Below the pieces are notes generated by a model that did no database searches, was not told the DNA's origin, and was given only the letters and a program-made list of their open reading frames with translations. A stretch of 63,448 bases of DNA, filler included, from Chrysochromulina tobinii (lineage: Eukaryota): NCBI GenBank assembly GCA_001275005.1. It is 9 parts of 9 records of this genome, joined end to end, with 100 filler letters (N's around TTAATTAATTAA, not from the genome) between each part and the next. Parts side by side here need not be neighbours in the genome. Positions count along the whole stretch, not along the records: positions 17,080 to 25,240 come from JWZX01000727.1; 8 more parts are not named here. The stretch is one strand, 5' to 3'. A program made the position numbers and the translations under genes. Of this stretch, positions 4,223 through 57,696 are shown one piece after another; position 1 is the first letter of the stretch; the number at the start of each line of letters is the position of its first letter.

Positions 4223-7200
4223 TTAACGGCCGCGGCCGCCGCCCTGGCGCCCAGAGCCGCCGCGACTGTTGCTCCGGCCGCGCCCGCCGCTGCGGTTGTT
4301 GCCGCGCCCGGCGCGCCCGCCACGGGAGGGTGCGCCAGGTGGCGGCCGTTGCGACATCCACTCCTGGATCAGACGGCGAAGTGCCATGTTGGGCGTGAGC
4401 GCCAGGTGCGCTAGAGGCTCTCCGGTCAGCGGCGACATGGCAGAGTGCAGCAGCCACTGCTCGATGGCCACGCGCTCGTACGACTGGCCGTCGGCCGTTA
4501 CTACCGGATCCACCATCACATCATGCGTGATCGGGCATAGGTAATCTGCAGGCTCGTCCTCCTCCCCGCGCTTCAGACCGCCCAGCGCAAGCGCCGTGGC
4601 GGTGTGCGACGACGCGTTGCTCGCGGTCTTGGCCATGGTCGCCCGCTGCAGCGCCTCGTCGGCCGCGCGGAGTGACGCGGCGGTCGCCTCGGCCGCCGCG
4701 CGGGCAGTCGCCTCCGCTCGATCCTTCGCCGCCGCCGCCGCCGCCGCGGCCGCCAAGTCCATGGCAGGGACTGATGCGGCAGAGGAAGGCTCGGCTGAGG
4801 CGGTGCTCAACCAAGCTTCGGCCTCCGCGTCCGCGTCCGCCGCCTCCGCGAGCCATGCCTCGGCAGCGGCCTGCTCCGCGGCCTCCTCCTCGGTCAGCTC
4901 GAGCGGGTCGATGCGCGCCGTGTCGGGCGAAGCTTCCGCAGCACTCGGCGCGAGCGCGGGGGGTATCGGGATGGCAACTGCCGCAACAGGCACTGCGGGC
5001 AGCTGAGCGGCAGGTAGGACCACCGTCGACGTCGACACCTCGCCATGCTCTGCCACGGCCTCGCCCCCCACCGTCGCCGGCCGTGAGGCTGTAGTCTCCG
5101 GTTCGGTTGGAGCCGCAGCCTTCACATCCGAGCCGAAGGGATCAGTCGAGCCTAATATGGCATCCGAGCGGGCCGCGGCTGCCACATTAGGGTGGACCGC
5201 GGCTGCCTTCGGGAGGAGTCCTTGCGACGCCGACGCCGACGCCGACGCCGCTGGCTTCGCCGCCGTCTTGGGCGCCGCCACCTCGGGCGGGCTGATAGTC
5301 GCCGTCGGGACACTGGCGGCGTCGGCCGTTGCCGCCACCTCCTTACCTCCCTTCTTCTTCTTACCGGCGGCAGCCGCACCAGCGGCCGCACCGGCGGCCG
5401 CTGCAGCCCCGGCGGTGGGAGGCGAAGGCGGCGAGGGGGCGGAGGGTGCGGCAGCAGCCGAAGACGGCTGGACGGCCGATGGCTTGTGCGCAGGCGTCGC
5501 TACGGACGCTTTGGTCTTCGACGAAGAGGTCGTCGCAGGAGGCTCTTCATCCTCCGAGGCTCTTCTTCCACCCACGCGGTCGCGGTCGCGGCGAGCGTGC
5601 TTGTCACGCCCGCCGCCGCCGCCCCGATCGGCGGCGCCACCAGCCATGCCCTTGCCGGCGAGGAGGCGTTCACTGAGTTGCACCATGCCCGCGGCGCGCG
5701 CGATGCGCGCGTACACCCCCAGCGCGGCCGGCATGCTCATCGGTGCTACCGCTGCGAGCAGCAGCGCACCGATCGGCAGGTGGGGACGATAGAAGAGCTC
5801 CCCCCACGCATTGCTTGGGGTCATCAGGTATGCGAGGGCCGTCCACTTGCGCGTGCGTGCGTGCGGCGTGTCGGAGCGAAGCCCGATGGCTACCAGCACG
5901 AGGGCAGCGAGGCTCAGCGCGGGTGGCAGCAACACCGCCCAGTGAGGCTGGCTCGGCAGCACAGCGCCGGTGCTCAGCCCCTCGGCATCGGTCTCCACCA
6001 GAGATGGGAGCAAGCCGATGAGAAGGAGGGCACGCAAGAGCACGGGAGCAAAGCAGAGAACGCGCCAGACCTGCAGCCGTGGCGAGCGCGCCCACATTTC
6101 CCAACCATCACGCCAGTCGGTGGCGCGCTCTCCCAGCCCAGCGGAGGAGGAGGAGGAGGCACCGCCTTCAGTGATCAACGAGATCGCCGCCGGCAATGCG
6201 GCGGCGAAGGCATCCGTCTCAGGCCGACGTGCAAAGTATGGGCGCGCCTCGAGCAGCGGCCACCAGTCAGGCGCAGCGCTGGAGCTTCCGAGGACACTCC
6301 CAGTGGCGGCGGAGGTGGCCGCGCGCGCCGCGAGGGTAGCTGCGTCGGCCGCCGCCCAGGGCGGCGCGGAGAACGGCCACAGACGCACGAGGCCACCTCC
6401 ATAGAGCCCTCCCTCGAGCAGTCGCGAGAGCAGCACAAAGACCCCACTGGCGACACTCAGCCAGGCAAGCTGAACATTGGGCTGCGACTGCAGCACGCCG
6501 TCGGCGGCCAAGAAGATGGCGCCGATAGAGCCGGTAGAGGCGGCGGCGGCGAGCAACGCGAAGAGCAGGGTATCCTCAGGCGCGACCATCAAGCCCATCG
6601 GAAACAAGGCCGCCGGGCCAAGCAGCGCGATCGAGTACACCGCCAGGCTGAAGGAGCGATCGTGCACCGGCGTGTTGGCATGTGTGCGCCACGTGAGCCG
6701 CGCGGCGGCGAACAGTATCCCGCCAAGGCAGAGCGCGCCGACAGTGGTGACCGCCTCGGCCTGGCTCATAAGTTGCCATACCATCCCGTGCAACGTGCTC
6801 ACTGGAGCAGCCGCGGCGCGAGGACAGCCTGGCAGTGGCTGCGCGCGAAGGAGCGCGAAGGGCGCGCCGAACAGGAAGGCGCCGCCCGCCATCGCCGACA
6901 CGTCAGCACCTCCGATGGCCACATCGTCACTTGACAAGCCCTCGAGGGCGTCACCGCCGCTCCCGCTGACGCTCCCAGCACTGCCGGTCCAGCTGCCAAC
7001 CTCACCGGTAGCTGGCGTGAGGAGTGGGAGAAGGAAGCGCAGCTGGACGGCGCAGCACAGGAGCACCGAGGCAGACGCGCCGAAAAGGGCACCTAGTAGC
7101 GCGCCCAGGACGCTCGATTTCTTCTCCTCGAGCGCCGCGGCCGCCGCGGCCTGGGCCGCAGCGCCGCCACCGCTGCCGCTGCTGCTGGCGCCGCCACCAC

Positions 7201-9549
7201 CACCCACACCGGCACTCCCTCCGGCGCCCATGGCAGCGACGCCGCCGCCCGCACTCGCCTCGCGGTGCTGACGATGGAGCTTCGACGCGGCGACGAGGGC
7301 GACGCGTACGTGCCGCACCGCATACATGGCAAACACGAGCGCCGCCGGCAAAGCGAGCAGTGCGGCAAGCGCGCCGAGAGCGAGCGTGTGCGGGTGGCAC
7401 GGACCAGGCAGCCAGAGCAGAGCGACGAATCGCAGCACCGACGGCATCAGCATGGAGAGCAGCAAGGCCGAGTGCGAGGGCGGCTCGGAGGCGCCGAACC
7501 GATGGAGCTCAACCGAGGCATAGCCGGTGCCGAGTGCCGCCGCCAAGTGTACCCCGTCGAGGTGTGACGCGCCCGCCGCCGCTGCCTCAAGCACCTCCGC
7601 CGCTGACAAGCGCACAGGCGGATGCGAGCTCGTCCAGGGCGTGCCCGCCCTGGGAGTGCTGATCTCCCTGATCTCCCTGGGCAAGAGTTTCGCCGCCACC
7701 ATCTCCTCGGCAGTCGAGGTCGACTCGCCAGCCACCACGGCCGCCGCCGCGGCCGCCGCCGCGGCCGCCGCCGCGACGGCAACTGCCTCGTGGGCGACGG
7801 TCGCGGAGAGGGCGCTGGTCGCCGCGGGAGAGGCAGAGGGCGCCGCAGTGAGAAAGGTGGCGGCCGTCGAGGCGGCGACAGGGGCGGTGACGGCCGCCCT
7901 CGCGGCACGCTCCGCGCTTGCCAGAGCCGCGGACACGGCCTGAGCGGGCGCATTGAAGGTAACGGCTTCGGTGGCGAGGAGGAGCAGCAGCGTGGTGCCT
8001 ACAGCACACAGCTGTGCTTCCCACGGAGGCCGTAAACCTGGGTACGCGGGCAGCGTGGGCAGCCGACGGAGCGCCGCGAAGGCGGCTAGCACGATGCTCA
8101 GGTGCAGCAGTCCCGAGCCCGCGGCCGGTTGGCCGCTGGTCGCATGCAAGAGGAGCCCGCCCGCCCCAATCCACGTGCAGAGGGAGGTGAGCATTGGCGC
8201 GCCGCCGCCGCGCACGCGCGCTGAGAGGTGCAGGAGTAGCGCGAGCACACACGCGGTGCCGATCGTCGCGGCGCGCCAAAGACCGCCCGAGGGCGGGAAC
8301 GAGAGCGTCGGCAGAACCCATGCCCGCAGGAGCGGCACGCTGACCACTAGCACCGTCGCGGCCAGCAAGCCGCACTCTGTGAGCTTCGTGGGGTTCTCCC
8401 CGAGCTCGCTGATGGCCGCGCCGCTGCCGGGCGCGACGCCACTGGCGGCCGCACCGGCCACGCTGCCGCCGCCGCCGCCGCCGCCGCCGCGGCTCGTGCC
8501 GCGCGTGCCGCGCGTGCAGGTGAGCGCGACTATGAGCGATCCAAATGCGACGCTTGCGGCCGCGGCGACCGACCAGGTGGCTAGAGGTGCATCGGCGGGT
8601 AGCAGCAGCTGCGAGAGGACGCGCGCGGCGAGGGCGAGATGCAGGAGCGTGCGGAAGCCGACGAGCAGCGCGCGGCAGAGCACCGACGGGCGCGCCGCGC
8701 CGCGCTCGCGCTCAATGGTGCCACATGCCCACCACGACGCGAGTAGCAGCTGCAGCTCGAGAGCGTAGAGGGCCTTGCTGCCCGTCCACGCCGTTGGGAG
8801 TACGGGTGGCGTGCTCAGCAGCACGCGCATCACGGCGCCCAGCCAGAGCACGCCCGCGAGCGCGGACAGGAGGCGGCAAGGCAGCCAGCGCGCGAAGGCC
8901 CGGAACGGCGCTCCTGTGAGAGGATCGACGACGACGAGGTTGGCCGGCTGCTCTGTGAGTGTGAACAGCTCCGATGCAGAGACGGCGCACCAGAAGGCCA
9001 TGCCGGAGGGCACGACGGCGCGCGGCGCGATCGCGAGGCACGCAAGGCCCAAAGCCGCGCCGCCGCCGCCGCCGGGGAGCCATACCCAGCCGGAGCGCGG
9101 CCTCCACTCCGTCAGTTGAAGAGCTCCGAACGTGAGCGCAATCACCGCGAGCGCCGCCGCCATCGTCGGCAGATCTTCGGGCAGCTCGCCCAACACGGCG
9201 CGCCAGAGCACCGGCCCGGTGATCGGCGCCTTGAGGGAGGGGCCACCGCACGCGAGCCACATGAGCGCGAGAGGCGTGGGCAGCTGTTGGTACGCTGTCA
9301 TCAGCACCTCTGCCGAATCAGGCATGTCCAAATTAGGGTCGGATGCGCCCGCCGCCGCGGCGGCCATCGCTCGCACTGCGGCGACAGGGTCGATCCGAGC
9401 CGCCGCGCTGGCCCAGGGGGCTGCGCCACCCTCGCTGCTGCACCACGCCGCCGTGGCCGCCGTCGCTGGCGACGAGCACACCTCTGCGCATCGGTCGTTC
9501 ACGCACTGGCCCGCAGCACCGACTGCCGCCGCCGCCGCTGCGGCAGGAT

Positions 9550-9580
<31 letters not shown>

Positions 9581-10576
9581 CCGGCGCAGCACGGCTGCGA
9601 GCGCCGTCGGCAGCTCGGCGCCGATGAGCAGCAGCCACCCACCAAAATGCCACCCGGATAGGGATGGGCGGTACCCGTTGTTGACACCGTTCCTTCCATT
9701 TCCGCGATAGTCGTCTTGCTCGTACGAGTCGTACGAGTCATACGACGCATCGTCGCGGTAGTCGTCGTAGTCATCGTCGTCCTCGGCGGCGGCGGCGCCG
9801 CCGCCACCCGCCGCGCACCGCGCCGCGTACGCCTCCGCCGCGTCCGCTTCCGCCTCGAAGTCGAGACCTGTCCAGCAGATGAGAAGCGCCGCCAGGGCGA
9901 GCAGCGGCGTGACGAGACCCACCGGTTCCTCGGTGGGCGGCGCGCTCGCGTCGGCGAAGAGCGCACCGAGGTGGCCCGACAGCCGCAGTAGTGGGCACAG
10001 CAGTAGCATCAGGAACAACCCGTACTGTCGGTGCGGCATCGACCACCACGCCCATCCAGGCATCCAGCGTGATGGGTTGCGCGCCACCGCCGCGCTCCGC
10101 TCGAGCGAGCGCCACCACACGACCACGGGCGCGATTCCCACGGTGGTTGTGAGGACCCAGTGGCCCCACCATTCGCCGACTCCGTATTCTCTCGCGAGCG
10201 GTGCGAGAAGCCCATGCGGGTAGCATCGCACCCGCAGCACACCGAGGGTGAGTGACAGGATGCCGATGAGCCCGAGGATCCACTTGCGCGCACCGTGGTC
10301 CGGGCGCGCGCCAGCTGGCAGCAGATGATGGCCCTCCCAAAGCAGCAGCCGCTGGTACATGCTGATGCTGAGATACGGCAGCGAGCACAGTGCGGCACGC
10401 CACACCGCACTCTCCCGGACCCACCGCTCGACGCCTGGGGCTAGGACCGTGAGGAGCGACCAGACGACCAGGAAGACCGGGAAGGTGAACATTCCCACGA
10501 GCGAACCCCAATCGCGCAGCGCCGGCATCCGCTGCACCACGTGCCCGCAGATGAGCATGGGTACGAGAGCTTCCAT
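4223..10576 (-). CDS. Large multi-pass membrane protein with C-terminal U-box E3 ligase domain and RGG tail
   Basis: 2117-aa uninterrupted ORF with many hydrophobic helices. The C-terminal PADYLCPITHDVMVDPVVTADGQSYERVAIEQWL...SPLTGEPL...PNMALRRLIQEW is a U-box. Confidence 0.85.
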
Positions 10577-10833: not shown

Positions 10834-11474
10834 ATGCTGCTGCTACTGCTACTCGCCATCGGGCCATCGAGCGCATTGAGGCTCGGCTCCAACGGCTTGG
10901 AATACACCGCTGCTGCTCGGCCGGTCTTGCGGCGCGCCAGCAATGTGATCGCCCGTGAGATCCTGCCGCTGGCGTCTGAGGCCGAGTATGATCGCGCGAT
11001 TGACGAGGCCATGGCCGCCAACAATGTTGTCGTCATCAAGTTCTATGCGAGCTGGTGCCGTGCGTGCAAGGCAATGCATCCCAAGTTTGAGCAGCTCGCT
11101 GATAGCTTTCCGCAGATGCAGTTCCGTGAGATCTTGTTCGACGAGAACAAGAAGCTCGCTAAGCGACTGGGCATCAAGATCCTACCCTACATGCATGTGC
11201 CTCGAGCTCGAGCTCGCGCGACGGCCACCACTACCGCGCATGCGTGTGGCCTCCATGCGGCCCGCCCGCCCGCCCCACTGACTGACCGCACAAGTTCGAG
11301 ACTTGTCGTTGCAGGGAGATTATCGCCGGTAACAAGGGGAAGATTGAGGGCTTCACGTGCGGGCCGAGCAAAATCTCCTTGCTCATGAGCAAGCTCGAAA
11401 GCGTGAACGAGGAGTATTGCGATGCTGAGACGATGGAGTGCACCGATGTGTCGGTAATTCTAGAAGCGGAGTGA
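10834..11474 (+). CDS. Thioredoxin-like protein (WCRAC) with N-terminal signal/bipartite peptide; 2 exons
   Basis: VVIKFYASWCRACKAMHPKF. Splicing a GC-AG intron at 11193-11314 restores ILPYMEIIAGNKGKIEGFTCGPSKI through to TGA at 11472-11474. Confidence 0.85.
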
Positions 11475-16979: not shown

Positions 16980-17079
16980 NNNNNNNNNNNNNNNNNNNNN
17001 NNNNNNNNNNNNNNNNNNNNNNNTTAATTAATTAANNNNNNNNNNNNNNNNNNNNNNNNNNNNNNNNNNNNNNNNNNNN
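16980..17079. other. Artificial contig linker (N + TTAATTAATTAA + N). Identical linkers at 25241-25340, 30727-30826, 51060-51159, 53766-53865, 56470-56569, 58767-58866 and 60887-60986
   Basis: Exactly 100 bp each, with a six-frame stop cassette in the centre. Confidence 0.99.
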
Positions 17080-18659
17080 CTCAGAAGGGCAACATCAAGA
17101 ACAACGGGCTGCAGGAGGTGCGTGTCTTGTCGACGCACTCACTCGCAGACTACTTGAGCTCAGTGATGGCCTCGCCACCGAGCTGCGATTCGAATGTGGG
17201 CGCCATCCCAAATGCGACTGGCGTCTCGGTGCTGCAGCGCTTCATTGTGCCACCCACCTCGCGCGCGTCGGTCAGCCGCGCGCTGTACCGGGCGGGGCGG
17301 CCGTTTCGCGCGTTCACGATGCAGTCGGCGCACCTCATCCCGCGCCCGTTCCCCTCTGGCAAGGCTCTCGATGCCCTCAACGGGCCGATCGTCATGGGCG
17401 AGGTGCTCACCGCGAGCACCGCGCAGCCGAATGCCGTGGCCGGGCTGCAGCCCATCAAGGGCGACGACTGGCGAGACATTTCTGATTCGATGGAGCGGTT
17501 GATGGGCGCCATCCTGCGCGCGACCGGCTGGTGCTTCGAGGAGCTGGTGCTCGAGCGGCCGCTGAACCTAATATGGGCCCCTCGCCTTGCATGCACGTGC
17601 TCAGCACGGCGCGCCCCTTCCCCTTCCCCACAGGTGCTTGAGCTCATCCGGATCCCTCGCGAGCCTTCAGCCCCGTGGTTCATGACCCAAGTCAAGGCGT
17701 TCAAGGCCGAGAAGGACGAGCGTGCCCAAGCGGAAGCGATGCTCGGCGTGCCGCCGACGGTGCGACCCAAATTTGGCAGCCTGCCGCCGCCGTTTTTCGC
17801 CAGGCGCTTCCCGGCGCCCGCGAAGAATGACTGGCGGCCTCTCGAGACCTACTGTGTGGGCGACCATTGCGTGCCCGACGGGCCCGCGATGGCTCGCGAG
17901 GGGTTCGTAGCCTCGCGAAAGCTTCCATACCGATGGATCGTCTTCGATCGGCTCGATGCCTCGATTCATCGGAAGGTCGAGTCGAGCATGGTACGCCTCT
18001 GATGGCCTCTGATGGCCTCTGATGGCCTCTGATGACCGCTGATGGCCTCTGATGGCCTCTGATGACCTCTGATGGCCTCTGATGATGATGATGACCTCTG
18101 ATGACCTCTGATTGCCCCCCTCATCAGGTGCTCGACTCGCTCGAGTTGGGAGACTCCTCTCAGCTCGAAGCGCTCGCACAGCTGGTCAAGGACGACCAGC
18201 CGGGCGCCTCCCTCGCAAAAGGGCACATCGCCCGAAACACGATCGCGTCCGACTCGCGCGTGTTCAAGCTTCGGCAGCTGTACACGCCCGGCTCGATCAG
18301 CGTGGGTCGCCCTCTCATTTGCTTCTCGGCGCCGCGGCTGTATGACGAGGTGCCCGTCTGCCACGCGTGCCACGCCTTGCATGCATGTGCTCACCACGGC
18401 GCCCTCGCCTCTTCCCCACAGGTGCCCGTCTGCCACGCGTGCTACGCCTTCTATCTCGCCAGGGGCGAGGGGTGGAAGAAGCATCCAAAGGTGCTCATCT
18501 CGGTCGCCTCCACGCCTTGCATGCATGTGCTCACCACGGCGCCCTCGCCCCTTCCCCACAGGTGCTCATCTCGGTCGCCTCCACGCCTGCACTTGGGCTG
18601 ATTGGGCAGCCACTTGACGAGCTGCCCTCCGAGTGCCTCTCGGAAGCGCAGCGCCGCCC

Positions 18660-18692
<33 letters not shown>

Positions 18693-19574
18693 GTCCGCGC
18701 GGCAGCAGCCGACGACGCCAGGGCAAGTGGCGCACTCGCCTCACGCGCTGGCGGCTGCACCCTCAGCGCACAGCGTCGTCCCGGGCACCTCCGCGAGCAG
18801 CGTGGCGCCGTCGTCGGGCGGCCTCGCCGGCCTCGTGACTGCCGCCGAGACGACGCTCGGAACGACGCCCACCAGGACCGCCTCGGCGCCCAAGACCACG
18901 CCCATGCGCATCGCCTCGGTGCCCAAGACGGCGCCCAAGACGGAGTCGAGGTCGGGCGCCGTACCGGGCACGTGCTCAAGCGCAGGCGCGCACACCCCTT
19001 CGAGCGCGAACAAGTTTGCGCACCTGACCGACCAAAAGGGCACGGTGGCTGCTGCCGGTGGTCCTCAAGGGGGTCTCGTCGGAAAGTCGCACTCGCTCGA
19101 GCTGCTGCATAAGTGCCATCAGAGCATCCAGAGCTTCGGCACCGACTCGCCGTTTGCGATGGCGTCGCGCTATCACATGCTGAAGCACTGCCTGCAGTGC
19201 AACATCCTATGCAAGGCATGCGTGGTGGAGCCCGAAGAGTTGGAGGCGCCTTGCATGCATGTGCTCACCACGGCGCCCTCGCCTCTTCCCCACAGGCATG
19301 CGTGGTGGAGCCCGAGGAGTTGGAGGCGCAACGTCGGAAGGAGAAGGCCGAGGCGGAGGCCAAGGCGGCCAAAAGTCGAAGGGGTGGCCCGGGCGATCGG
19401 AAGCCCAACAGGCCGCCTTCGCCCGACAAGGAGAGCAGAGAGTACCAGGCGCGTCAACGGAAGCTGATGCTCTCCATCGAGGCGGGGAATGAGATCGCCG
19501 GCGCTGCGGCCGCGCCGCCCTTGGCTGCCGCGGCCGTGGCTGGTGCAGTCGAACCCGACGAGACACTACGGTGA
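17080..19574 (+). CDS. 5'-truncated multi-exon gene of unknown function with CxxC motifs. Introns at 17547-17633, 17991-18127, 18350-18421, 18491-18561 and 19216-19295
   Basis: Removing the five phase-0 introns gives one continuous frame (…WCFEEL|VLELIR…ESSM|VLDSL…LYDE|VPVCHAC…HPK|VLISV…ILCK|ACVVEP…TLR*). Confidence 0.7.
17547..19295 (+). mobile_element. Introner-like repeated intron family, 4 copies (17547-17633, 18350-18421, 18491-18561, 19216-19295)
   Basis: Shared 3' core CGCCTTGCATGCATGTGCTCACCACGGCGCCCTCGCCYCTTCCCCACAG (more diverged in the first copy). The 5' part of each intron duplicates the start of the following exon. Confidence 0.85.
17991..18127 (+). repeat. GT-AG intron made almost entirely of a (CCTCTGATGG) decamer minisatellite
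   Basis: GTACG followed by ~10 copies of CCTCTGATG(G/A), ending CCCCCCTCATCAG. Confidence 0.85.
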
Positions 19575-19746
19575 CGGTGTCATGGACGGTGTCCAACAGT
19601 CCAAGCTTTTTGAAGTTCCCCCCCCGGTGAGTCTGAGTGCGGACTGTGTGGTGTGTGGGCGAAGCTTCGCAACCGAAACGTTCGAACCGCTTTATCTAAA
19701 ACTTACTTGACTTTACTTGACGTAAACTTGACGTGGCCCAGTCTAC

Positions 19747-21741
19747 CTATGCGGCTCGAAAGCGCCCCCGGGACCACCTCCTAAAACGAGTCGGCTGACC
19801 CCGCTGGGCAGCGCTCAGATCGAAAGACATCTTGAAGAACAGGTAGGCGACAAAGTCGCTGTCGCCCTTGTCCGTGAACTCAATCGCGGGGTCGTCCATC
19901 ATCTTCTGGTACTCGTCCACGTTTTGTGGCCAAGCCCGAGCGTGGAGGACGCGCTGCACGTCAGGATCGTCCAAGTTGGCGATGATTCCCGCCTTGAGCG
20001 CACACGAGAATTCGGCGGCGCACCAGCCGCGATTTTCGTAGGGCACGGCGTTGATCCAACCCCACAGGTCAGACTTCTCGCAGGCGCGATTCTTGACCTC
20101 GCTGAACTCGGGAACTGGCGCGCTTTGTGAACCCAACACTGCTGGGAAGTCCTGCCAGCGTTCGAGCTGAGGCAGGACGATGACTTTAACTCCACCGAAG
20201 GCGAACATGCGCGACATCTCGAAGAGCGCCGTGCGGAAGCATTTGCTCTCGCCTGGCGTCCGATCGCGCTGCGGCGGAAGGCCAAGGCGAGTTCCGAAGC
20301 GGGGATTCTGGAAGAGGCTGGCATAGTCGAGAAAGACCGCATCGTCGTCATCCGCGTGTGCTGTTTTGAGTGCTTGTGCGAGTCGGTGGATGCGCTTGCT
20401 GCTCGGCGTGGGGTGGTTTTCACAGGCCCAGCCATGGCTCACAGCAAAGCGGCGCCGATTCTCTGGCGGCATGCCCTCATAAAAGCTGCCGCGAGGCAGC
20501 TCCTGGCGCCGCGGGAAGAGAAGCACCTCATTCTGTGCCCGTCGCTGGTGCGCCGACACGAAGCGTCGGATGAAGCCAACCTTGATCCAACCGATACGTG
20601 ATTGGATGCAGAAGGCGCGGAAGCCGCTGTCGTCTTTTCGCACTGGCACCATGCGCGCCAATGAGCGTGTCAGCCCCGGAATGATGATCCCCTCGAGATC
20701 ACTCTCATTGGTGATGCGGAGCTTGCCGGAACGGTGACCCTCACGCAGTCGCTGCACTGGATTCATGAGCGCTGAAGCCGAGAAGTGCTCCTTCACTGCA
20801 GGGTCAGAGGCGTTGACAATCCGCTGACAAAACGCTGCCAGCATGAGCTCTGCGGTGACCCACACACTCTCGTGTATGGCTCTGCCGCTATGCTCTGCTG
20901 GCAACGACCGCTCTGGCTTCCTGTGCAGCACCACCGTACGCAGCCCCGAATACGTTACGCTCCAAAAGGTTCGACTGCTTCCTTCCTCAAAGGCCCTTGA
21001 GCGCCGCTCCTGCTCGACAGTCAGGTCGGTCCAGCACGGCCGTCCATCACTCTCGGTCGTCTGACGTAGACGCGAGTCTGTGCATGGACCATTGGAATTG
21101 AATTCAGTACGGCTCCCATCGCCAGCTGCTGTGTAGTGACGTTGTGGCCGCGCGCAAAACTCCATCAGGACCAGATCAGAGTCATGTGCTTTTTCGAGGT
21201 GCTCGACAAGGTCCGCCAGATGATCACCCCACGGGTCCGGGTGCTCTTCTGTCACCGAGAGGTAGATGACGTTGTAGATCTCCACGCCCGATGGTGGCGC
21301 GCCGGCGTGATAGGCGTGCCGTGGGATCCATTGCGCTGCCGGAAGAATCTTGCCCTCCTTACGAAGCGTGCGCAAGTACCCAAGAAGAATGAATTGGAGC
21401 TGCGCTTCATCTGCCCATTCGTTGAACCCTGCATCGTCCCAACGAGGGTCGGGCCCGTCAGCACCAAACGCATCGGCTGCCGAGGCAGTCGACGGCAGCG
21501 GCGGAGGGGGCGGCTGCTCCTTTTTGGTGGCCACCCTTGCCGCATCCACCATCCCCGCATCCGCCTCCCGACGTAGCCGCGCGTTGAGCTCCACCAAATA
21601 CGGTGGGTCATTGGGTTCGCAACTAGGGACGGTGTTGGTCTTCGCGGTCATCCACTTTATGAACATCTCCATCGCGAAGAGGCCTCCAAAAAGGTCAAGT
21701 TCTGAAACGGCGCCTGGACGGAAGTAAAAAACGTTAGCCAA
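19747..21741 (-). CDS. Tandem HET-like (TIR-related) domain protein, paralog 1; start uncertain
   Basis: The C-terminal domain has AVSHGW..HPTP, VFLDYASLFQ, RTPGE..FRTALFEMSRMF and PYENRGWCAAE. The N-terminal half is a degenerate copy (HPDPWG, VLMEFCARPQ, ESVWVTAE). Confidence 0.7.
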   Translation of the reverse strand: MANVFYFRPGAVSELDLFGGLFAMEMFIKWMTAKTNTVPSCEPNDPPYLVELNARLRREADAGMVDAARVATKKEQPPPPPLPSTASAADAFGADGPDPRWDDAGFNEWADEAQLQFILLGYLRTLRKEGKILPAAQWIPRHAYHAGAPPSGVEIYNVIYLSVTEEHPDPWGDHLADLVEHLEKAHDSDLVLMEFCARPQRHYTAAGDGSRTEFNSNGPCTDSRLRQTTESDGRPCWTDLTVEQERRSRAFEEGSSRTFWSVTYSGLRTVVLHRKPERSLPAEHSGRAIHESVWVTAELMLAAFCQRIVNASDPAVKEHFSASALMNPVQRLREGHRSGKLRITNESDLEGIIIPGLTRSLARMVPVRKDDSGFRAFCIQSRIGWIKVGFIRRFVSAHQRRAQNEVLLFPRRQELPRGSFYEGMPPENRRRFAVSHGWACENHPTPSSKRIHRLAQALKTAHADDDDAVFLDYASLFQNPRFGTRLGLPPQRDRTPGESKCFRTALFEMSRMFAFGGVKVIVLPQLERWQDFPAVLGSQSAPVPEFSEVKNRACEKSDLWGWINAVPYENRGWCAAEFSCALKAGIIANLDDPDVQRVLHARAWPQNVDEYQKMMDDPAIEFTDKGDSDFVAYLFFKMSFDLSAAQRGQPTRFRRWSRGRFRAA

Positions 21742-21822
21742 CAGCCTCTTCTGTCAAAAATGGAACAATAGTGGATCGGTTGCGGAAATCCCCGACTCGG
21801 TTGGAGCGAGCAGGCGGACCGT

Positions 21823-21903
21823 AAGCAAGCAAGCTAGTTAGTCGAAACAACACAAGTACCTAAACGAGCGCAATCGAGTACTTGCTTGCTTGCTTGCTTG
21901 CTT
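21823..21903. mobile_element. 81-bp micro-insertion with (AAGC)n/(GCTT)n inverted ends and a 9-bp target-site duplication
   Basis: GCGGACCGT flanks it directly at 21814-21822 and 21904-21912. A related sequence lies at 32021-32055. Confidence 0.65.
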
Positions 21904-22351
21904 GCGGACCGTCTCTATAACCAGACCGGAACCTGGTAGGAGAGAAGGAGAGAAGGAGAGACTTTAGGAGACCCTCCGGACCTCTCAGCTCAACACGAGA
22001 GATAGAGGTGTCTCAGTCTGATCTCAGTGCCTTTCTCGCTCACGCTAGAGCTGCTGCGTGCCGTGCGGTCTGTAGACTGTACGCCGCGTAAGGGCTAAAA
22101 AAGGGGCTAAGGGCTCGACACGTCATAACTCATATATCCCCCCCCGGCCCCGCATCAAGTATACACACGTCAAGCCAGAGGCATAGATTCATCCCCGTCG
22201 AGATGCCCCGTGCCCCCCACGCCCCACCAAGCATACACAAGGCAACCTCCTCTCTCAGTATGGCAACTAGAACTACAGGTTCTCCATTTACTGGATGGAT
22301 GTTTCTCGATCAGTTCTTTTTCAGGGGAACGGCAAAACTTGTTCTTGAAGA

Positions 22352-24304
22352 TTATGGGCCATGGGCGCCGCTTGGCTGACCATGCTGGGCGGCGCTCAGA
22401 TCGAAAGACATCTTGAAGAACAGGTAGGCGACATAGTCGCGGTCGCCCTTGGCCGTGAACTCAATCGCGGGGTCGTCCATCATCTTCTGGTACTCTTCCA
22501 CGTTTTCTGGCCAAGGCCGAGCGTTGAGGACGTCCTGCACGTCCTGATCGCCCAAGTTGGCGATGATTTTCGCCTTGAGCGCACACGAGAATTCGGCGGC
22601 GCACCAGCCGCGATTTTCGTAGGGCACGGCGTTGATCCACCCCCACGGGTAAAACCGCTCGCATTTGCGCTTCTTCACCTCGCTGAACTTGAGAACTGGC
22701 TCGCTTTGTGATCCCAACACTGCTGGGAAGTCCTGCCAGCGTTCGATCTGAGGCAGGACGATGACTTCAACTCCACCGAAGGCGAACATGCGCGACATCT
22801 CGAAGAGCGCCGTGCGGAAGCATTTGCTCTCGCCTGGCGTCCGATCGCGCTGCGGCGGAAGGCCAAGGCCGGTTCCGAAGCGGGCATCCTGGAAGAGGCT
22901 AGCGTAGTCGAGAAAGACCGCATCGTCGTCATCCGCGTGTGCTGTTTTGAGTGCTTGTGCGAGTCGGTGGATGCGCTTGCTGCTCGGCGTGGGGTGGTTT
23001 TCACAGGCCCAGCCATGGCTCACAGCAAAGCGGCGCCGATTCTCTGGCGGCATGCCCTCATAAAAGCTGCCACGGGGCAACTCCTGGCGTCGCGGGAAGA
23101 GAAGCACCTCGTCCTGTGCCCATCGCTGGTGCTCCGACACGAAGTGTCGGATGAAGCCAACCTTGATCCAACCGATACGTGATTGGATGCAGAAAGCGCT
23201 GAAGCCTTTGTCGTCTTCTCGCACTGGCTTCATGCGCTCCAATGAGCGTTTCAGCCCCGGAATGATGATCTCCTTGAGATCACTCTCAATTTTGCTGCTG
23301 AGCTTGCCGGAACGGTGACCCTCAAGCAGTCGCTGCACCGGATTCATGAGCGCTGAAGCCGAGAAGTGCTCCTTCACTTCAGGGTCAGAGGCGTTGACAA
23401 TCCGCTGGCAAAACGCTGCCAGCATGAGCTCTGCGGTGACCCACTCGCTCTCATGTATGGCTCTGTCGCGATGCCTGTGCAGCACCACCGTACGCAGCCC
23501 CGAATACGTTACGTTCCAAAAGGTTCGACTGCTTCCTTCCTCGAAGGCCCTTGAGCGCCGCTCCTGCTCGACAGTCAGGTCGGTCCAGTTCCGCGAACCA
23601 TCGCTCCTGGTATGGCTTCCATCGCCAGCTGCTGTGTAGTGACGTTGTGGCCGCGCGCAAAACTCCATCAGGACCAGATCAGAGTCATGTGCATCTTTGA
23701 GGTGCTCGACAAGGTCCGCCAGATGATCACCTTGCGGGTCCGGGTGCTCTTTTGTCCCCCAGATGTGGATGACGTTGTAGATCTCCACGCCCGATGGTGG
23801 CGCGCCGGCGTGATAGGCGTGCCGTGGGATCCATTGCGCTGCCGGAAGAATCTTCTCCTCCTTATGAAGCGTGCGCAAGTACCCAAGAAGAATGAATTGG
23901 AGCTTCGCTTCATCTGCCCACTTGTTGAACCCTGCATCGTCCCAACGAGGGTCGGGCCCGTCAGCACCAAGCGCATCGGCTGCCGAGGCAGTCGACGGCA
24001 GCGGCGGAGGGGGCGGCTGCTCCTTTTTGGTGGCCGCCCTTGCCGCATCCACCATCCCCGCATCCGCCTCCCGACGCAGCCGCGCGTTGAGAACCAAATA
24101 GTCATTGGGTTCGCAACTAGCGACGGTGTTGGTCTTCGCGGTCATCAACTTCAAGATCACATCCATTTCGCGTTTGTCGCCGCGCCGGGCCCAGCAAAAC
24201 AACTCCAAAAGCCCCTTCGTGAATTTGGAAGTTCGCAGTCGAACCAGGAATAAGTCAACTTCTGAAACTGTCGCGCTGTTATAAACGCCAGCCTTTCCTG
24301 TCAA
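22352..24304 (-). CDS. Tandem HET-like domain protein, paralog 2; start uncertain
   Basis: Highly similar to 19747-21741 at nucleotide level over most of its length, with the same motifs. Confidence 0.7.
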   Translation of the reverse strand: MTGKAGVYNSATVSEVDLFLVRLRTSKFTKGLLELFCWARRGDKREMDVILKLMTAKTNTVASCEPNDYLVLNARLRREADAGMVDAARAATKKEQPPPPPLPSTASAADALGADGPDPRWDDAGFNKWADEAKLQFILLGYLRTLHKEEKILPAAQWIPRHAYHAGAPPSGVEIYNVIHIWGTKEHPDPQGDHLADLVEHLKDAHDSDLVLMEFCARPQRHYTAAGDGSHTRSDGSRNWTDLTVEQERRSRAFEEGSSRTFWNVTYSGLRTVVLHRHRDRAIHESEWVTAELMLAAFCQRIVNASDPEVKEHFSASALMNPVQRLLEGHRSGKLSSKIESDLKEIIIPGLKRSLERMKPVREDDKGFSAFCIQSRIGWIKVGFIRHFVSEHQRWAQDEVLLFPRRQELPRGSFYEGMPPENRRRFAVSHGWACENHPTPSSKRIHRLAQALKTAHADDDDAVFLDYASLFQDARFGTGLGLPPQRDRTPGESKCFRTALFEMSRMFAFGGVEVIVLPQIERWQDFPAVLGSQSEPVLKFSEVKKRKCERFYPWGWINAVPYENRGWCAAEFSCALKAKIIANLGDQDVQDVLNARPWPENVEEYQKMMDDPAIEFTAKGDRDYVAYLFFKMSFDLSAAQHGQPSGAHGP

Positions 24305-24349
24305 CCGTGGTGTCTCAGTCTGATCTCAGTGCCTTTCTCACGCACTAGA

Positions 24350-24428
24350 CACTGAGTTCAAAACGCAGGAGGTGGGGATAGAGTGTGTGAATCCAGAAAG
24401 AATACCTCCCCCTACCCCTTTGGGTCAA
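24350..24428 (+). mobile_element. Monomer of the ~77-bp CACTGAG...GGGTCAA unit, inserted upstream of HET paralog 2
   Basis: The homologous site upstream of paralog 1 (22008-22094) is empty, reading CTAGAGCTGCTGCGT versus CTAGA-[unit]-A-AGAGCTGCTGCGT here. Confidence 0.85.
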
Positions 24429-24592
24429 AAGAGCTGCTGCGTCTTACTACGCCGTAAGGGAGCTCACAGCACAGCCTCAGTGTTCGAGTTCTTCGGGAGC
24501 TAGGAGTGGCGGCTACTGGCCATGCGAGATACAAATCTAGGCCAAGGAGTGGCGCCACTCCCTGCATGCAAGCGCCCAGTACGGCGCTAGCC

Positions 24593-25240
24593 CTAGGAGT
24601 GGCGGCTCGCCGTACGAGGCGCCTGCGGTGTGGCCGTCCGCGGCGCGCGAAGGCGCTGCGCGGGGAGGTGCTGCACGAGTCCATCCTCATCAAAGGCGAC
24701 CACGTACAGCTGGGCACCGTCCGCGGCGCGGCTGGTCGCCCTCACCTTGGCCGCATACCACTCGCCGTTGTCGTACTGGGCAAGCACGCGCCCCCCGGGC
24801 GTCGGCACGAAAGGGCGTGGCTTTGAGCTCCGCTTGACCAGGGCGAGCTTTGAGTGGTCGACGGGCGGCGTGCTCGCCCCGGCGGGATTCTCGCGAAGGG
24901 CGCCGTCAGGCACCGCAGCGACGGAGTGACCGCTGTCAAGGGCGCGCACGCCGGATCTGGCGGCGGCGGCGGTCGTGGCGGCAGGGCAGGTGGGGGCGGC
25001 GGGTAGACGATGGCTCGAAGGTGGTCGACAGCCAAAGGAGCCCCCGAGTATCTCGGCGAGTATCTCGGCCTCACCCGCCGCCGTCTTGGTCGGGCGCGGC
25101 CGCGCCTCCGTCTCACCCACCGCTGTGAAGGCCGCTGTGAAGGGGGGCTCTGCTACAGTCTCCGCGGGCGACTCTGGCGCAGTCGCCTCCGCCCCCGCCG
25201 CCTCCTCCTCCTCCACCTCCTCGGCAGCTGCCGAGTCCAG
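24593..25240 (-). CDS. 5'-truncated ORF ending in a Tudor/Agenet-like domain
   Basis: GGRVLAQYDNGEWYAAKVRA...YVVAFDEDG aromatic-cage pattern. The ORF runs into the linker. Confidence 0.6.
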   Translation of the reverse strand: MDSAAAEEVEEEEAAGAEATAPESPAETVAEPPFTAAFTAVGETEARPRPTKTAAGEAEILAEILGGSFGCRPPSSHRLPAAPTCPAATTAAAARSGVRALDSGHSVAAVPDGALRENPAGASTPPVDHSKLALVKRSSKPRPFVPTPGGRVLAQYDNGEWYAAKVRATSRAADGAQLYVVAFDEDGLVQHLPAQRLRAPRTATPQAPRTASRHS

Positions 25241-27085: not shown

Positions 27086-27419
27086 CACCACCTGATTTTG
27101 AACTCAGTGGTTGACCCAAAGGGGTAGGGGAGGGTATGGATTCACACACTATCCCCACCACCTGATTTTGAACTCAGTGGTTGACCCAAAGGGGTAGGGG
27201 AGGGTATTCATTCACACACTATCCCCACCACCTGATTTTGAACTCAGTGGTTGACCCAAAGGGGTAGGGGAGGGTATTCTTTCTGGATTCACACACTATC
27301 CCCACCACCTGATTTTGAACTCAGTGCAAAGCGCAAATAGGGGAAGGGCAAAGGGGTACATGAAAGGGGAGGTATTCTTTCTGGATTCACACACTATCTC
27401 CACCACCTGATTTTGAACT
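27086..27419 (-). repeat. Tandem array of the ~70-77-bp unit directly upstream of rep (1 partial, 3 full, 1 degenerate)
   Basis: TTGACCCAAAGGGGTAGGGGAGGGTAT..ATTCACACACTATCCCCACCACCTGATTTTGAACTCAGTG at 27111-27179, 27181-27249 and 27251-27326. Confidence 0.95.
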
Positions 27420-46199: not shown

Positions 46200-46359
46200 T
46201 TGTGCGGTTGTGACATGCCGTGGAGCGGGTTCATGACGTTAGGAGCTCGTGAACTTTTGAGGATGAGGGTGAGGGCAAGGGTTCTAGGACCGGACGAGAG
46301 TCAGAAGTTGCATACTACACCACAGACCACACCCGACCCCCCCCGGGCCGACGCCCGGC

Positions 46360-46514
46360 CACTGAGTTCAAAATCATGTGGTGGGGATAGTGTGTGAATC
46401 CAGAAAGAATACCCTCCCCTACCCCTTTGGGTCAACCACTGAGTTCAAAATCAGGTGGTGGGGATAGTGTGTGAATCCAGAAAGAATACCCTCCCACCTA
46501 CCCCTTTGGGTCAA
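46360..46514 (+). mobile_element. Head-to-tail dimer of the 77-bp unit
   Basis: Units at 46360-46435 and 46437-46514 are near-identical to the reverse complement of 27251-27326. Flanks are GGC and G-GGC. Confidence 0.9.
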
Positions 46515-56469: not shown

Positions 56470-56606
56470 NNNNNNNNNNNNNNNNNNNNNNNNNNNNNNN
56501 NNNNNNNNNNNNNTTAATTAATTAANNNNNNNNNNNNNNNNNNNNNNNNNNNNNNNNNNNNNNNNNNNNATACTAAACCCGATACCGGCGAGCCTGCCGC
56601 TGCGAA

Positions 56607-57231
56607 GGATTTCGAAGGATTGCGATGGATTGTGATGGATTGGATGGATTGCGATGGATTGCAATGGATTGCGACGGATTGCGATCAGGAATGGCTTGCT
56701 GAGCTCACGCCGATTCAAACAACCCTTCACATTGATGCTCCCCATCCTAATCACACACGATGCGCGCGCTCCAACCGGCGCCGTACGCTCAAAACGGCGC
56801 CGCGCGTTCAAACGGTGCTGCTCGCTCAAAACGGCGCCGTGCGCTCAAAACGGCGCTGTGCATTCAAACGGTGCAGCGCGCTCGAAACGGCGCCGCGCGC
56901 TCACAATGGCGTCGCGCGCTCAAAATGGCGCTGCGCGTTCAAAACGGCGCGGCGCGCTCAAAACGGCGCGGCGCGTTCAAACGGTGTTGTGCGTTCAAAC
57001 GAGGGTCGGCAAGGGGTCGGCAAGGGGTCGGCAGATTAGTTAGAAGGGGTCGGCAGAGGGGTCGGCAGATTAGTTAGAAGGGGTCGGCAGGGGGGTCGGC
57101 AGATTAGTTAGAAGGGGTCGGCAGAGGGGTCGGCAGAGGGGGTCGGTAAGGGGTCGGCAGAGGGGTCGGTAGCTGACTAACCATTGAGGGGTCTGCAGAC
57201 CGTCTGCAGACCGTCTGCAGACCGGTCTGCA
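56607..57231. repeat. Four consecutive minisatellite blocks (GGATTGCGAT; GCGCGCTCAAAACGGC; GGGGTCGGCAGA; CTGCAGACCGT)
   Basis: Blocks at about 56607-56690, 56760-57001, 57003-57170 and 57192-57231. Confidence 0.85.
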
Positions 57232-57696
57232 GTTTGCTGTGCGGGCTGGGAGGGTCGGAATGGTGTGCGGGACCCTGCGCAGGAAGGTAGGTGTTCCCCA
57301 GGTGTCCATGTAGGACTTCCAGTTGGGTTTTTCGGACTCCCCCGGCTCGGCTGCTATACATTTCAACACTACTCCGACCCAGATGTACCACAGTAAACAC
57401 CCCGGACCTAACCCTGGTGACGCACACTCGAGAAGCTCAACCATGAACCAGCCGTGAACATTGCAACAGTCAGCCTCGTTCAACCTCGTTGTTGTACAGA
57501 ATGCACTGATACTTCGAGATGGTTTCAGACACCCTCCCGCCCCCTCCTCCGCTTTTGCCCCCGCGCACTCTGAGAGGTCTGTCGAGGTCAGACTGTCGAG
57601 GCCAGCCTCTCGTGCCCCCTTCTACGGGCCAGGTTCCCCGCTCTTCTTTGTCAGGCTCACGTCAGGCTCATGCCAGGCTCACTAGCACAGGTTCAC

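What the first reader, a model, noticed from the sequence alone, without database searches (positions are those of the whole stretch)
18350..19295. Intron birth by variable exon duplication plus a constant acceptor cassette
In three introns the 5' part copies the start of the next exon: 29 nt with 1 mismatch (18350), 27 nt (18491) and 34 nt with 1 mismatch (19216). The copy then switches at a CGC(CT) microhomology into an invariant ~48-nt cassette with a CTCAC branch-like motif and CCCCACAG. The donor (GT, GT, GC) is supplied by the host's own AG|GY proto-splice site, all three are phase 0, and splicing restores the protein exactly. Long, variable duplications with microhomology differ from the short fixed TSDs of DNA-transposon introners, which suggests template switching or target-primed insertion (inference).
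Basis: partly seen in the sequence, partly recalled or inferred. Interest (0 to 1): 0.75.

Follow-up and report, generated by a model that had tools for sequence, protein, structure and literature searches.

The report
Introns born by copying neighbouring introns
In a freshwater haptophyte alga, many young introns consist of a short copy of the neighbouring exon joined to the end of another intron, which likely arises when DNA copying or repair jumps between similar sequences, and this gives a rare, testable view of introns being born apparently without a transposon.

Summary
Introns 18350-18421, 18491-18561 and 19216-19295 start with 29, 27 and 34 nt copied from the next exon, then a shared 47-nt branch/acceptor piece. 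RNA contigs skip two of them; 18491-18561 has only indirect support. The host is the Chrysochromulina tobinii/parva group. Across metagenome loci, 87 of 155 sites carrying the shared core have a flanking duplication above the 99th percentile of a swap null (68 clean cases, 12-48 nt). Three first-reader details do not generalise: phase 0 (24:14:17), AG before the donor (28 of 68) and an invariant cassette (137 different 3' ends in 155 sites). New here: a mirror type (borrowed donor, acceptor copied from the previous exon); the same footprint in two unrelated intron families; three empty alleles, one lacking a 72-nt duplication plus only 8 borrowed bases; and local copying within genes. There are no terminal inverted repeats and no fixed duplication length, and a published catalogue lists no introner family for C. 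tobinii. Best reading: homology-guided template switching onto existing introns plus selection (0.5); RNA-templated insertion is the main rival (0.27).

The parts
17082..19574 (+). Host gene of unknown function (5' part cut off at the contig edge, 17080), five phase-0 introns
   Evidence: One stop-free frame after removing five introns; no Pfam hit in 5 of the 6 exons scanned; 90%-identity cluster holds C. tobinii and C. parva proteins
17547..17633 (+). Intron 1: older, diverged family member; 10-nt copy of the next exon (1 mismatch), a longer carried 5' piece shared with L003 and L027, core, acceptor; donor follows TG, not AG
   Evidence: 87 nt skipped in 3 of 3 RNA runs
17991..18127 (+). Intron 2: 10-mer tandem-repeat intron ending CCCTCATCAG, a second family that elsewhere shows the same duplication footprint; no duplication here
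   Evidence: 137 nt skipped in 2 of 3 RNA runs
18350..18421 (+). Intron 3 (72 nt, GT-AG): 29-nt copy of next exon (18350-18378) plus cassette; its single mismatch matches intron 4's junction
   Evidence: skipped in X13 and X15
18375..18421 (+). Borrowed 47-nt intron end: shared core (18379-18401) with branch-like CTCAC (18390-18394), pyrimidine tract, CAG acceptor
   Evidence: branch role inferred from consensus and position, not mapped
18422..18450 (+). Exon copy of the intron-3 duplication
18491..18561 (+). Intron 4 (71 nt, GT-AG): perfect 27-nt copy of next exon (18491-18517) plus cassette
   Evidence: splicing only indirectly supported, one RNA contig reads into it; retention would shift the frame
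18562..18588 (+). Exon copy of the intron-4 duplication
19216..19295 (+). Intron 5 (80 nt, GC-AG): 34-nt copy of next exon (19216-19249) plus cassette
   Evidence: skipped in 3 of 3 RNA runs
19296..19329 (+). Exon copy of the intron-5 duplication

Best explanation
These are young spliceosomal introns made of a duplicated stretch of the host exon plus the end of an existing intron, likely created when a DNA end in an exon switches by short homology onto another intron, copies through its splice site and returns upstream of where it left. Inferred steps: (1) a nick, break or stalled strand in an exon anneals by 3-13 nt of homology to an intron, often in the same gene; (2) synthesis copies a variable piece holding the branch motif and one splice site; (3) the strand returns 12-72 nt back in its own locus, duplicating that stretch; (4) selection keeps the events in which the duplicate supplies the missing site, a GT/GC at its start (type A) or an AG at its end (type B), so that splicing restores the mRNA; (5) each new intron can serve as template for the next and hands on scraps of its own exon copy, like a chain letter. 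The template could be DNA or unspliced pre-mRNA; no dedicated transposase is required.
For: Shown: anatomy and splicing (a further type-A intron spliced in L020). 87 of 155 core sites carry a duplication above the 99th percentile of 1000 swapped pairs. Empty alleles hold a single copy: L033 vs L025 (80 nt = 72 duplicated + 8 borrowed), L002/L105 vs L107 (95 nt), L015 vs L096 (65 nt, at an existing acceptor). The footprint occurs in three unrelated intron-end families; an 8-nt insert can hardly be a transposon. Junction overlap averages 5.9 nt vs 3.5 +/- 0.3 in a null, 39 sites. Same-locus pairs share 3' cassette more than cross-locus pairs (19 of 131 vs 4.9%), and the window's subtype is confined to this gene (3 of 155). 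Both mirror types and insertions whose ends are not splice sites exist (L001, L022, first L037 copy). Two unrelated genes (L023, L057) share 103 nt at 90% that include the flanking exon end. One nested event in L002 is one base off the donor register, as microhomology allows (by eye).
Against: Strand bias is near total (184 same-strand vs 5 opposite pairs; 43 vs 0 within 130 nt, though these include tandem arrays), and in the 4 cases where direction could be read the source lay downstream (2 by script; 2 by eye); plain DNA switching predicts neither. The 5' sharing test showed no local excess overall (mean 3.54 vs 3.40). The microhomology null does not model greedy boundary calling, so the excess is smaller than it looks. 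The rate needed for hundreds to thousands of such introns is high for an unaided repair error. Empty alleles could also arise by precise loss between the repeats. No enzyme was identified.
Confidence: 0.5

Rival explanations
1. RNA-templated insertion. A reverse transcriptase (borrowed LINE/Penelope machinery or a repair polymerase) copies an intron RNA, possibly an intron circle in which an acceptor AG is joined to a cryptic exonic GT of the same transcript. The cDNA integrates with one exact splice-site junction and one microhomology junction, leaving a long variable duplication. Type A would come from a downstream intron, type B from an upstream one.
For: One end sits at a splice site while the other is variably truncated at microhomology. 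Near-total sense orientation. Source downstream in 4 of 4 readable type-A cases (and by eye). Non-LTR elements make variable and sometimes very long TSDs (PMC9977147, passages); spliceosomes can join an intron's 3' end to a 5' splice site (PMC10996645, passages).
Against: Inserts whose ends are not splice sites, and one off-register nested case. No poly(A) or 3' repeat tail seen by eye in the listed cassettes. Sense bias in exons is also forced by selection. n = 4 for direction. No circle junction was tested.
Confidence: 0.27
2. A tiny non-autonomous HUH-type (Replitron- or Helitron-like) element built on the palindromic core. It inserts in a fixed orientation with one fixed end, one fuzzy end taken from the parent's flank, and variable TSDs.
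For: Replitron-1 shows orientation-specific insertion, fuzzy ends from the parental flank and variable TSDs, and one putative Replitron locus was reported in C. tobinii (PMC10288648, passages). The core holds short palindromes.
Against: No short terminal direct repeat or fixed terminus is shared (137 different 3' ends in 155); either end can be the fixed one; two families without the core show the same footprint, one insert being 8 nt.
Confidence: 0.1
3. Two steps: an ordinary tandem duplication of exon sequence (Rogers model), later patched by gene conversion from another intron that installs the branch and acceptor.
For: Some events are simple tandem copies across an existing acceptor (L002, L096/L015); about 6 of 68 type-A duplications start right at an existing acceptor (by eye); n vs n+1 tandem alleles exist.
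Against: Only 28 of 68 duplications follow AG, so most could not be spliced before the patch; many would shift the frame meanwhile. No allele with the duplication but without the cassette was seen among the allele pairs.
Confidence: 0.1
4. A classical DNA-transposon introner (MITE-like) with a co-opted splice site.
For: Splice-site co-option from the duplication is as in known introners (PMC9860276).
Against: Longest inverted match near the insert ends is 3 nt or less in 68 of 68; duplications 12-72 nt instead of a fixed 3-9 nt.
Confidence: 0.03

Closest known systems
Introners / introner-like elements with TSD-derived splice sites (Gozashti et al. 2022 PMC9860276, passages and supplement rows; Roy et al. 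bioRxiv 10.1101/2020.10.14.339549, parts 1-2 of 4; Amoebophrya IEs PMC7789003, passages)
   Same: Repeated intron families; one splice site carried and the other co-opted from a target duplication; phase follows the available motif; marine Chrysochromulina MAGs have introners (4-bp TSD).
   Different: Known TSDs are short and fixed per family (3-9 nt), often with TIRs, and copies are similar end to end. Here duplications are 12-72 nt, there are no TIRs, only a partial intron end is shared, either end may be borrowed, and several families act as donors. The 2025 catalogue lists 0 families for C. tobinii (PMC12130899 supplement file 7).
Intron gain by staggered double-strand-break repair in Daphnia pulex (PMC4202315, passages; review PMC3443670, passages)
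   Same: Direct repeat of adjacent exon sequence at the far end of a new, polymorphic intron; repeated internal events.
   Different: Daphnia repeats are 4-12 bp and the source of most inserts is unknown; here repeats are several times longer and the insert is traceable to other introns.
Tandem genomic duplication (Rogers) model (as reviewed in PMC3443670, passages)
   Same: Exon duplication supplies splice sites and the protein is unchanged.
   Different: Needs a duplicated AGGT and no foreign DNA; here 40 of 68 lack AG before the donor and a foreign intron end is always added.
Replitron-1 of Chlamydomonas (PMC10288648, passages)
   Same: Oriented insertion, fuzzy end copied from the parent's flank, variable TSD.
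   Different: Replitrons have short terminal direct repeats, a defined body and a transposase; none was seen here.
Intron transposition models: reverse splicing, spliceosomal retrohoming, RT template switching (named in PMC3443670; intron circles in PMC10996645, passages)
   Same: New introns copy existing introns, in sense orientation, sometimes within one gene.
   Different: Those models move a whole intron without a long duplication; here half an intron plus a long exon copy.

Membership tests
Spliceosomal intron | Removed from RNA at GT/GC-AG boundaries | tested here: met
   Introns 3 and 5 (and 1, 2) skipped in RNA contigs; L020 2320-2404 skipped in X14. Intron 4 indirect only; type B not covered by RNA.
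Introner (broad sense) | Many sequence-similar introns at unrelated positions | tested here: met
Introner (broad sense) | Similarity over the whole intron length with defined ends | tested here: not met
   5' part is locus-specific exon copy; 137 distinct 3' ends in 155 sites
DNA-transposon (MITE-like) introner | Terminal inverted repeats of 6 nt or more | tested here: not met
   3 nt or less in 68 of 68
DNA-transposon (MITE-like) introner | Short TSD of fixed length (3-9 nt) | tested here: not met
   12-48 nt in 68 core sites (the threshold hides shorter ones), up to 72 nt in the second family
Tandem genomic duplication (Rogers) | Duplicate spans AG|GY and no foreign sequence is added | tested here: not met
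   AG before donor in 28 of 68; foreign intron end present
Non-LTR / target-primed insertion | Variable TSD, one exact end, one truncated end with microhomology | tested here: met
   for type A; type B is the mirror image, which simple target priming does not give
Non-LTR / target-primed insertion | Autonomous RT partner sharing the 3' end; RNA intermediate | not testable with these tools
   No whole genome held
Replitron / HUH element | Short terminal direct repeats and fixed termini | tested here: inconclusive
   No shared terminus across sites; no dedicated test for terminal direct repeats was run
Replitron / HUH element | Cognate HUH transposase in the genome | not testable with these tools
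   One putative locus reported in C. tobinii; link to this core untested
Retrozyme / ribozyme-bearing repeat | Hammerhead or other Rfam motif | tested here: not met
   No match near a gathering score in 9 loci; 6 weak chance-level rows

The most novel reading that the evidence does not exclude
A transposase-free, self-perpetuating route of mass intron gain: the spliceosome joins an intron's end to a cryptic splice site of the same transcript (an intron circle), the junction is written back into the gene, and every new intron carries a scrap of its parent's exon, so parent-to-daughter chains can be read directly from the genome.
Probability: 0.2. Interest if true: 0.92.

Novelty: new variant of a known kind. 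Interest (0 to 1): 0.74.

Why it matters
Where new introns come from is a long-standing question, and most mass gains are now ascribed to transposons. Here an alga with sequenced cultured strains shows recent, polymorphic gains with a footprint unlike catalogued introners: long exon duplications and traceable intron donors. The published screen scored C. tobinii as having none, so similar systems may be invisible to whole-intron similarity searches. Carried exon scraps give parent-daughter direction, and empty alleles give before-and-after pairs, which makes DNA-switching versus RNA-templated models directly testable. The long flanking repeats also offer a route to precise intron loss and tandem expansion.

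Tried and rejected
Whole-genome census was impossible: no genome is held and the loci's records are not searchable. RNA check of type B failed: the L020 type-B introns had no RNA cover. Second RNA look at intron 4 was not made because both read-laying runs were used. The retention test used the wrong frame and is ignored; introns 1 and 2 were entered one base off there and corrected. Rfam found no ribozyme. Folding the introns gave no shared structure. The viral scan gave one locus (L124), a phage-like contig ending in algal sequence, probably chimeric, not an autonomous element. Homolog search with exon 2 found only 2 near-identical proteins, so no outgroup. Summed DNA depth over the cassette (17,686 vs about 48) is only a sign of high copy number. 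The family-agnostic scan is dominated by tandem repeats and reverse-strand echoes (59 of 149 'other') and was used only for named cases; 1 of its 3 direction rows (L057) is a repeat artefact. Searches were failed scripts. The null for type A had one outlier score of 44 that I did not inspect.

Full report
OBSERVATION. The window is a string of contigs joined by N-linkers; the finding lies on 17080-25240. The three duplications have the stated lengths and mismatches, follow AG, start GT, GT, GC, and switch into a 47-nt piece that differs at one base among the copies. Removing five introns (17547-17633, 17991-18127, 18350-18421, 18491-18561, 19216-19295) gives one stop-free frame with all introns in phase 0. 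RNA contigs skip introns 1 and 5 in 3 of 3 RNA runs and introns 2 and 3 in 2 of 3. Intron 4 is not bridged in the listed rows; two contigs break off by one letter where the spliced form differs, and one reads into the cassette. An annotated C. parva protein agrees with the spliced reading across introns 1-3 but departs after the intron-4 duplicate, so it gives no support there. A lake allele, 97.2% identical, carries all three introns. Cluster members name the host group as Chrysochromulina tobinii/parva.

A GENOME-WIDE FAMILY. A relaxed core scan gave 167 sites in 69 locus groups. I dropped one allele group (2 sites) and 10 sites with under 100 nt of context. Of the remaining 155, 74 scored above the 99th percentile of 1000 swapped pairs for a copy of the next exon's start (type A), 25 for a copy of the previous exon's end (type B; about half of these are type-A or tandem sites counted twice), 87 for either. 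After dropping 6 tandem or mis-anchored sites, 68 type-A introns remain: duplication 12-48 nt, median 24.5; donors GT 60, GC 8; AG before the donor 28, G 54; 66 of 68 introns are 62-102 nt. The two copies differ at 5.0% of sites in 59 ungapped pairs, 21 being perfect. Phases called with a codon model were 24:14:17 for 55 confident sites of 67 scored, close to GT frequencies in coding frames, 824:386:569. So phase 0 and AG|GY are properties of this gene, not of the family. The sample is ascertained on one core variant and is not a census.

MIRROR TYPE AND OTHER DONORS. Twelve candidates have a shared donor piece, the core, and then a 9-35 nt copy of the preceding exon's end that supplies the AG; 9 exceed the null threshold. 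A phase-0 spliced reading is stop-free over the flanks in 10 of 12 and retention adds an in-frame stop in 11 of 12; in L050 the joined exons read like one armadillo repeat (motif recalled). RNA did not cover the type-B introns tried, but spliced one more type-A intron. A second family ending CCCTCATCAG shows 12 of 50 acceptors above its null, 8 of them exon duplications by eye and 4 tandem arrays; a third ending TGCATGCAG has 4 such cases among 5 rows. Some inserts have long duplications but no splice site at either end.

BEFORE AND AFTER. Allele pairs give empty sites with one copy of the duplicated stretch: L033 lacks 80 nt present in L025, made of a 72-nt exon copy and 8 borrowed bases; L002 and L105 lack 95 nt present in L107; L015 lacks 65 nt present in L096 at an existing acceptor. 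Gain versus loss is not polarised. L033 matches the downstream copy at its 5' differences and the upstream copy at its 3' difference, the reverse of a simple deletion product (by eye), which mildly favours gain. Tandem n and n+1 alleles also occur.

SOURCE AND JUNCTIONS. For 39 of 68 sites another site explains the whole carried 5' piece, and the match runs on into the exon copy for 5.9 nt on average against 3.5 +/- 0.3 in 61 null rounds; greedy boundary calling inflates this somewhat. Same-locus pairs share 3' cassette more often than cross-locus pairs (19 of 131 above the 95th percentile vs 4.9%), with no such excess on the 5' side; pairs are not independent. The window's exact subtype is found only in this gene. 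Core density next to a known copy is 0.39 per kb (58 in 148 kb) against 4 in the 63-kb window. In L016 and L055 an intron carries the tail of its downstream neighbour's exon copy; L007 and window introns 3 and 4 look the same by eye, though for 3 and 4 the reverse order is possible. Subfamilies also span unrelated contigs, so copying is local and long-range.

MECHANISM. Shown: structure, splicing of type A, abundance, empty alleles, several donor families, local enrichment. Inferred: a strand end in an exon anneals to an intron, copies a piece with the branch motif and one splice site, and returns upstream, duplicating the stretch between; selection keeps splice-competent products. I put this at 0.5. 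An RNA-templated route (0.27) explains the strand bias and the 4 downstream sources better, but fits inserts without splice-site ends less well. A HUH element (0.1), duplication then conversion (0.1) and a classical DNA introner (0.03) fit worse; no inverted repeat above 3 nt was found in 68 of 68.

COMPARISON. Known introners co-opt splice sites from short fixed TSDs (PMC9860276, passages; bioRxiv 10.1101/2020.10.14.339549, parts 1-2 of 4; PMC7789003, passages). C. tobinii and C. parva are listed among the assemblies in the 2022 supplement, whose held copy is cut; the introner rows I saw (the first 32 of 214 mentions) are marine MAGs. The 2025 dataset gives C. tobinii 0 families; 2 of its 14 files were not searched. 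Daphnia gains have 4-12 bp repeats (PMC4202315, passages). Replitron-1 has fuzzy ends and variable TSDs (PMC10288648, passages). The C. tobin genome paper mentions introns once (PMC4580454, passages). Also seen: PMC11282704 part 1 of 5, PMC10996645, PMC3443670, PMC12403724, PMC9977147, PMC13685798 (passages), bioRxiv 10.1101/051292 (abstract; its supplements and those of other preprints are closed). Ten full-text searches found no description of this pattern; subscription journals are mostly not covered. An earlier AI note on another piece of this genome reports the same footprint; it is not independent support, but the phenomenon is not new within this scan.

VERDICT. Real, spliced, recent and widespread. 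It works like an introner in co-opting a splice site from a target duplication, but fails the tests for transposon introners. New variant of a known kind; interest 0.74.

Noticed in passing
window 16980-17079 and seven similar places: Contigs are joined by 44 N, a 12-base TA-rich linker and 44 N, so neighbours across them are not real neighbours.
   Followed up: yes
window 27086-27326 and 46359-46514: Tandem units of 70 and 77 nt whose consensus sequences look like reverse complements of each other: a dispersed repeat family (by eye).
   Followed up: no
window 56601-57232: Block of 10-, 19-, 12- and 11-mer tandem repeats at a contig start; the 10-mer resembles intron-filling repeats seen in the loci.
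   Followed up: no
window 4223-10576 (-): Uninterrupted 2117-codon ORF.
   Followed up: no
window about 11186-11315 (+): Probable intron in a thioredoxin-like gene with a faint echo of the core (17 mismatches in 48).
   Followed up: no
L002 1150-2600 (- strand reading): One gene holds serial and nested duplication events from three intron families, several stacked on existing acceptors.
   Followed up: partly
L023 1467-1569 and L057 1467-1569: Two unrelated genes share a type-B intron and about 20 nt of flanking exon (103 nt, 90%), suggesting homology-chosen targets.
   Followed up: partly
L124 2700-3060: Phage-like contig from the viral collection ends in algal-type sequence with the core; probably a chimeric assembly.
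   Followed up: partly
L075, L047, L109, L089: Head-to-tail arrays of core-containing units (27-73 nt) inside single introns.
   Followed up: no
L025/L033: The polymorphic 80-nt intron lies in what reads like a phospholipase C X-domain gene (motif recalled, not scanned).
   Followed up: no
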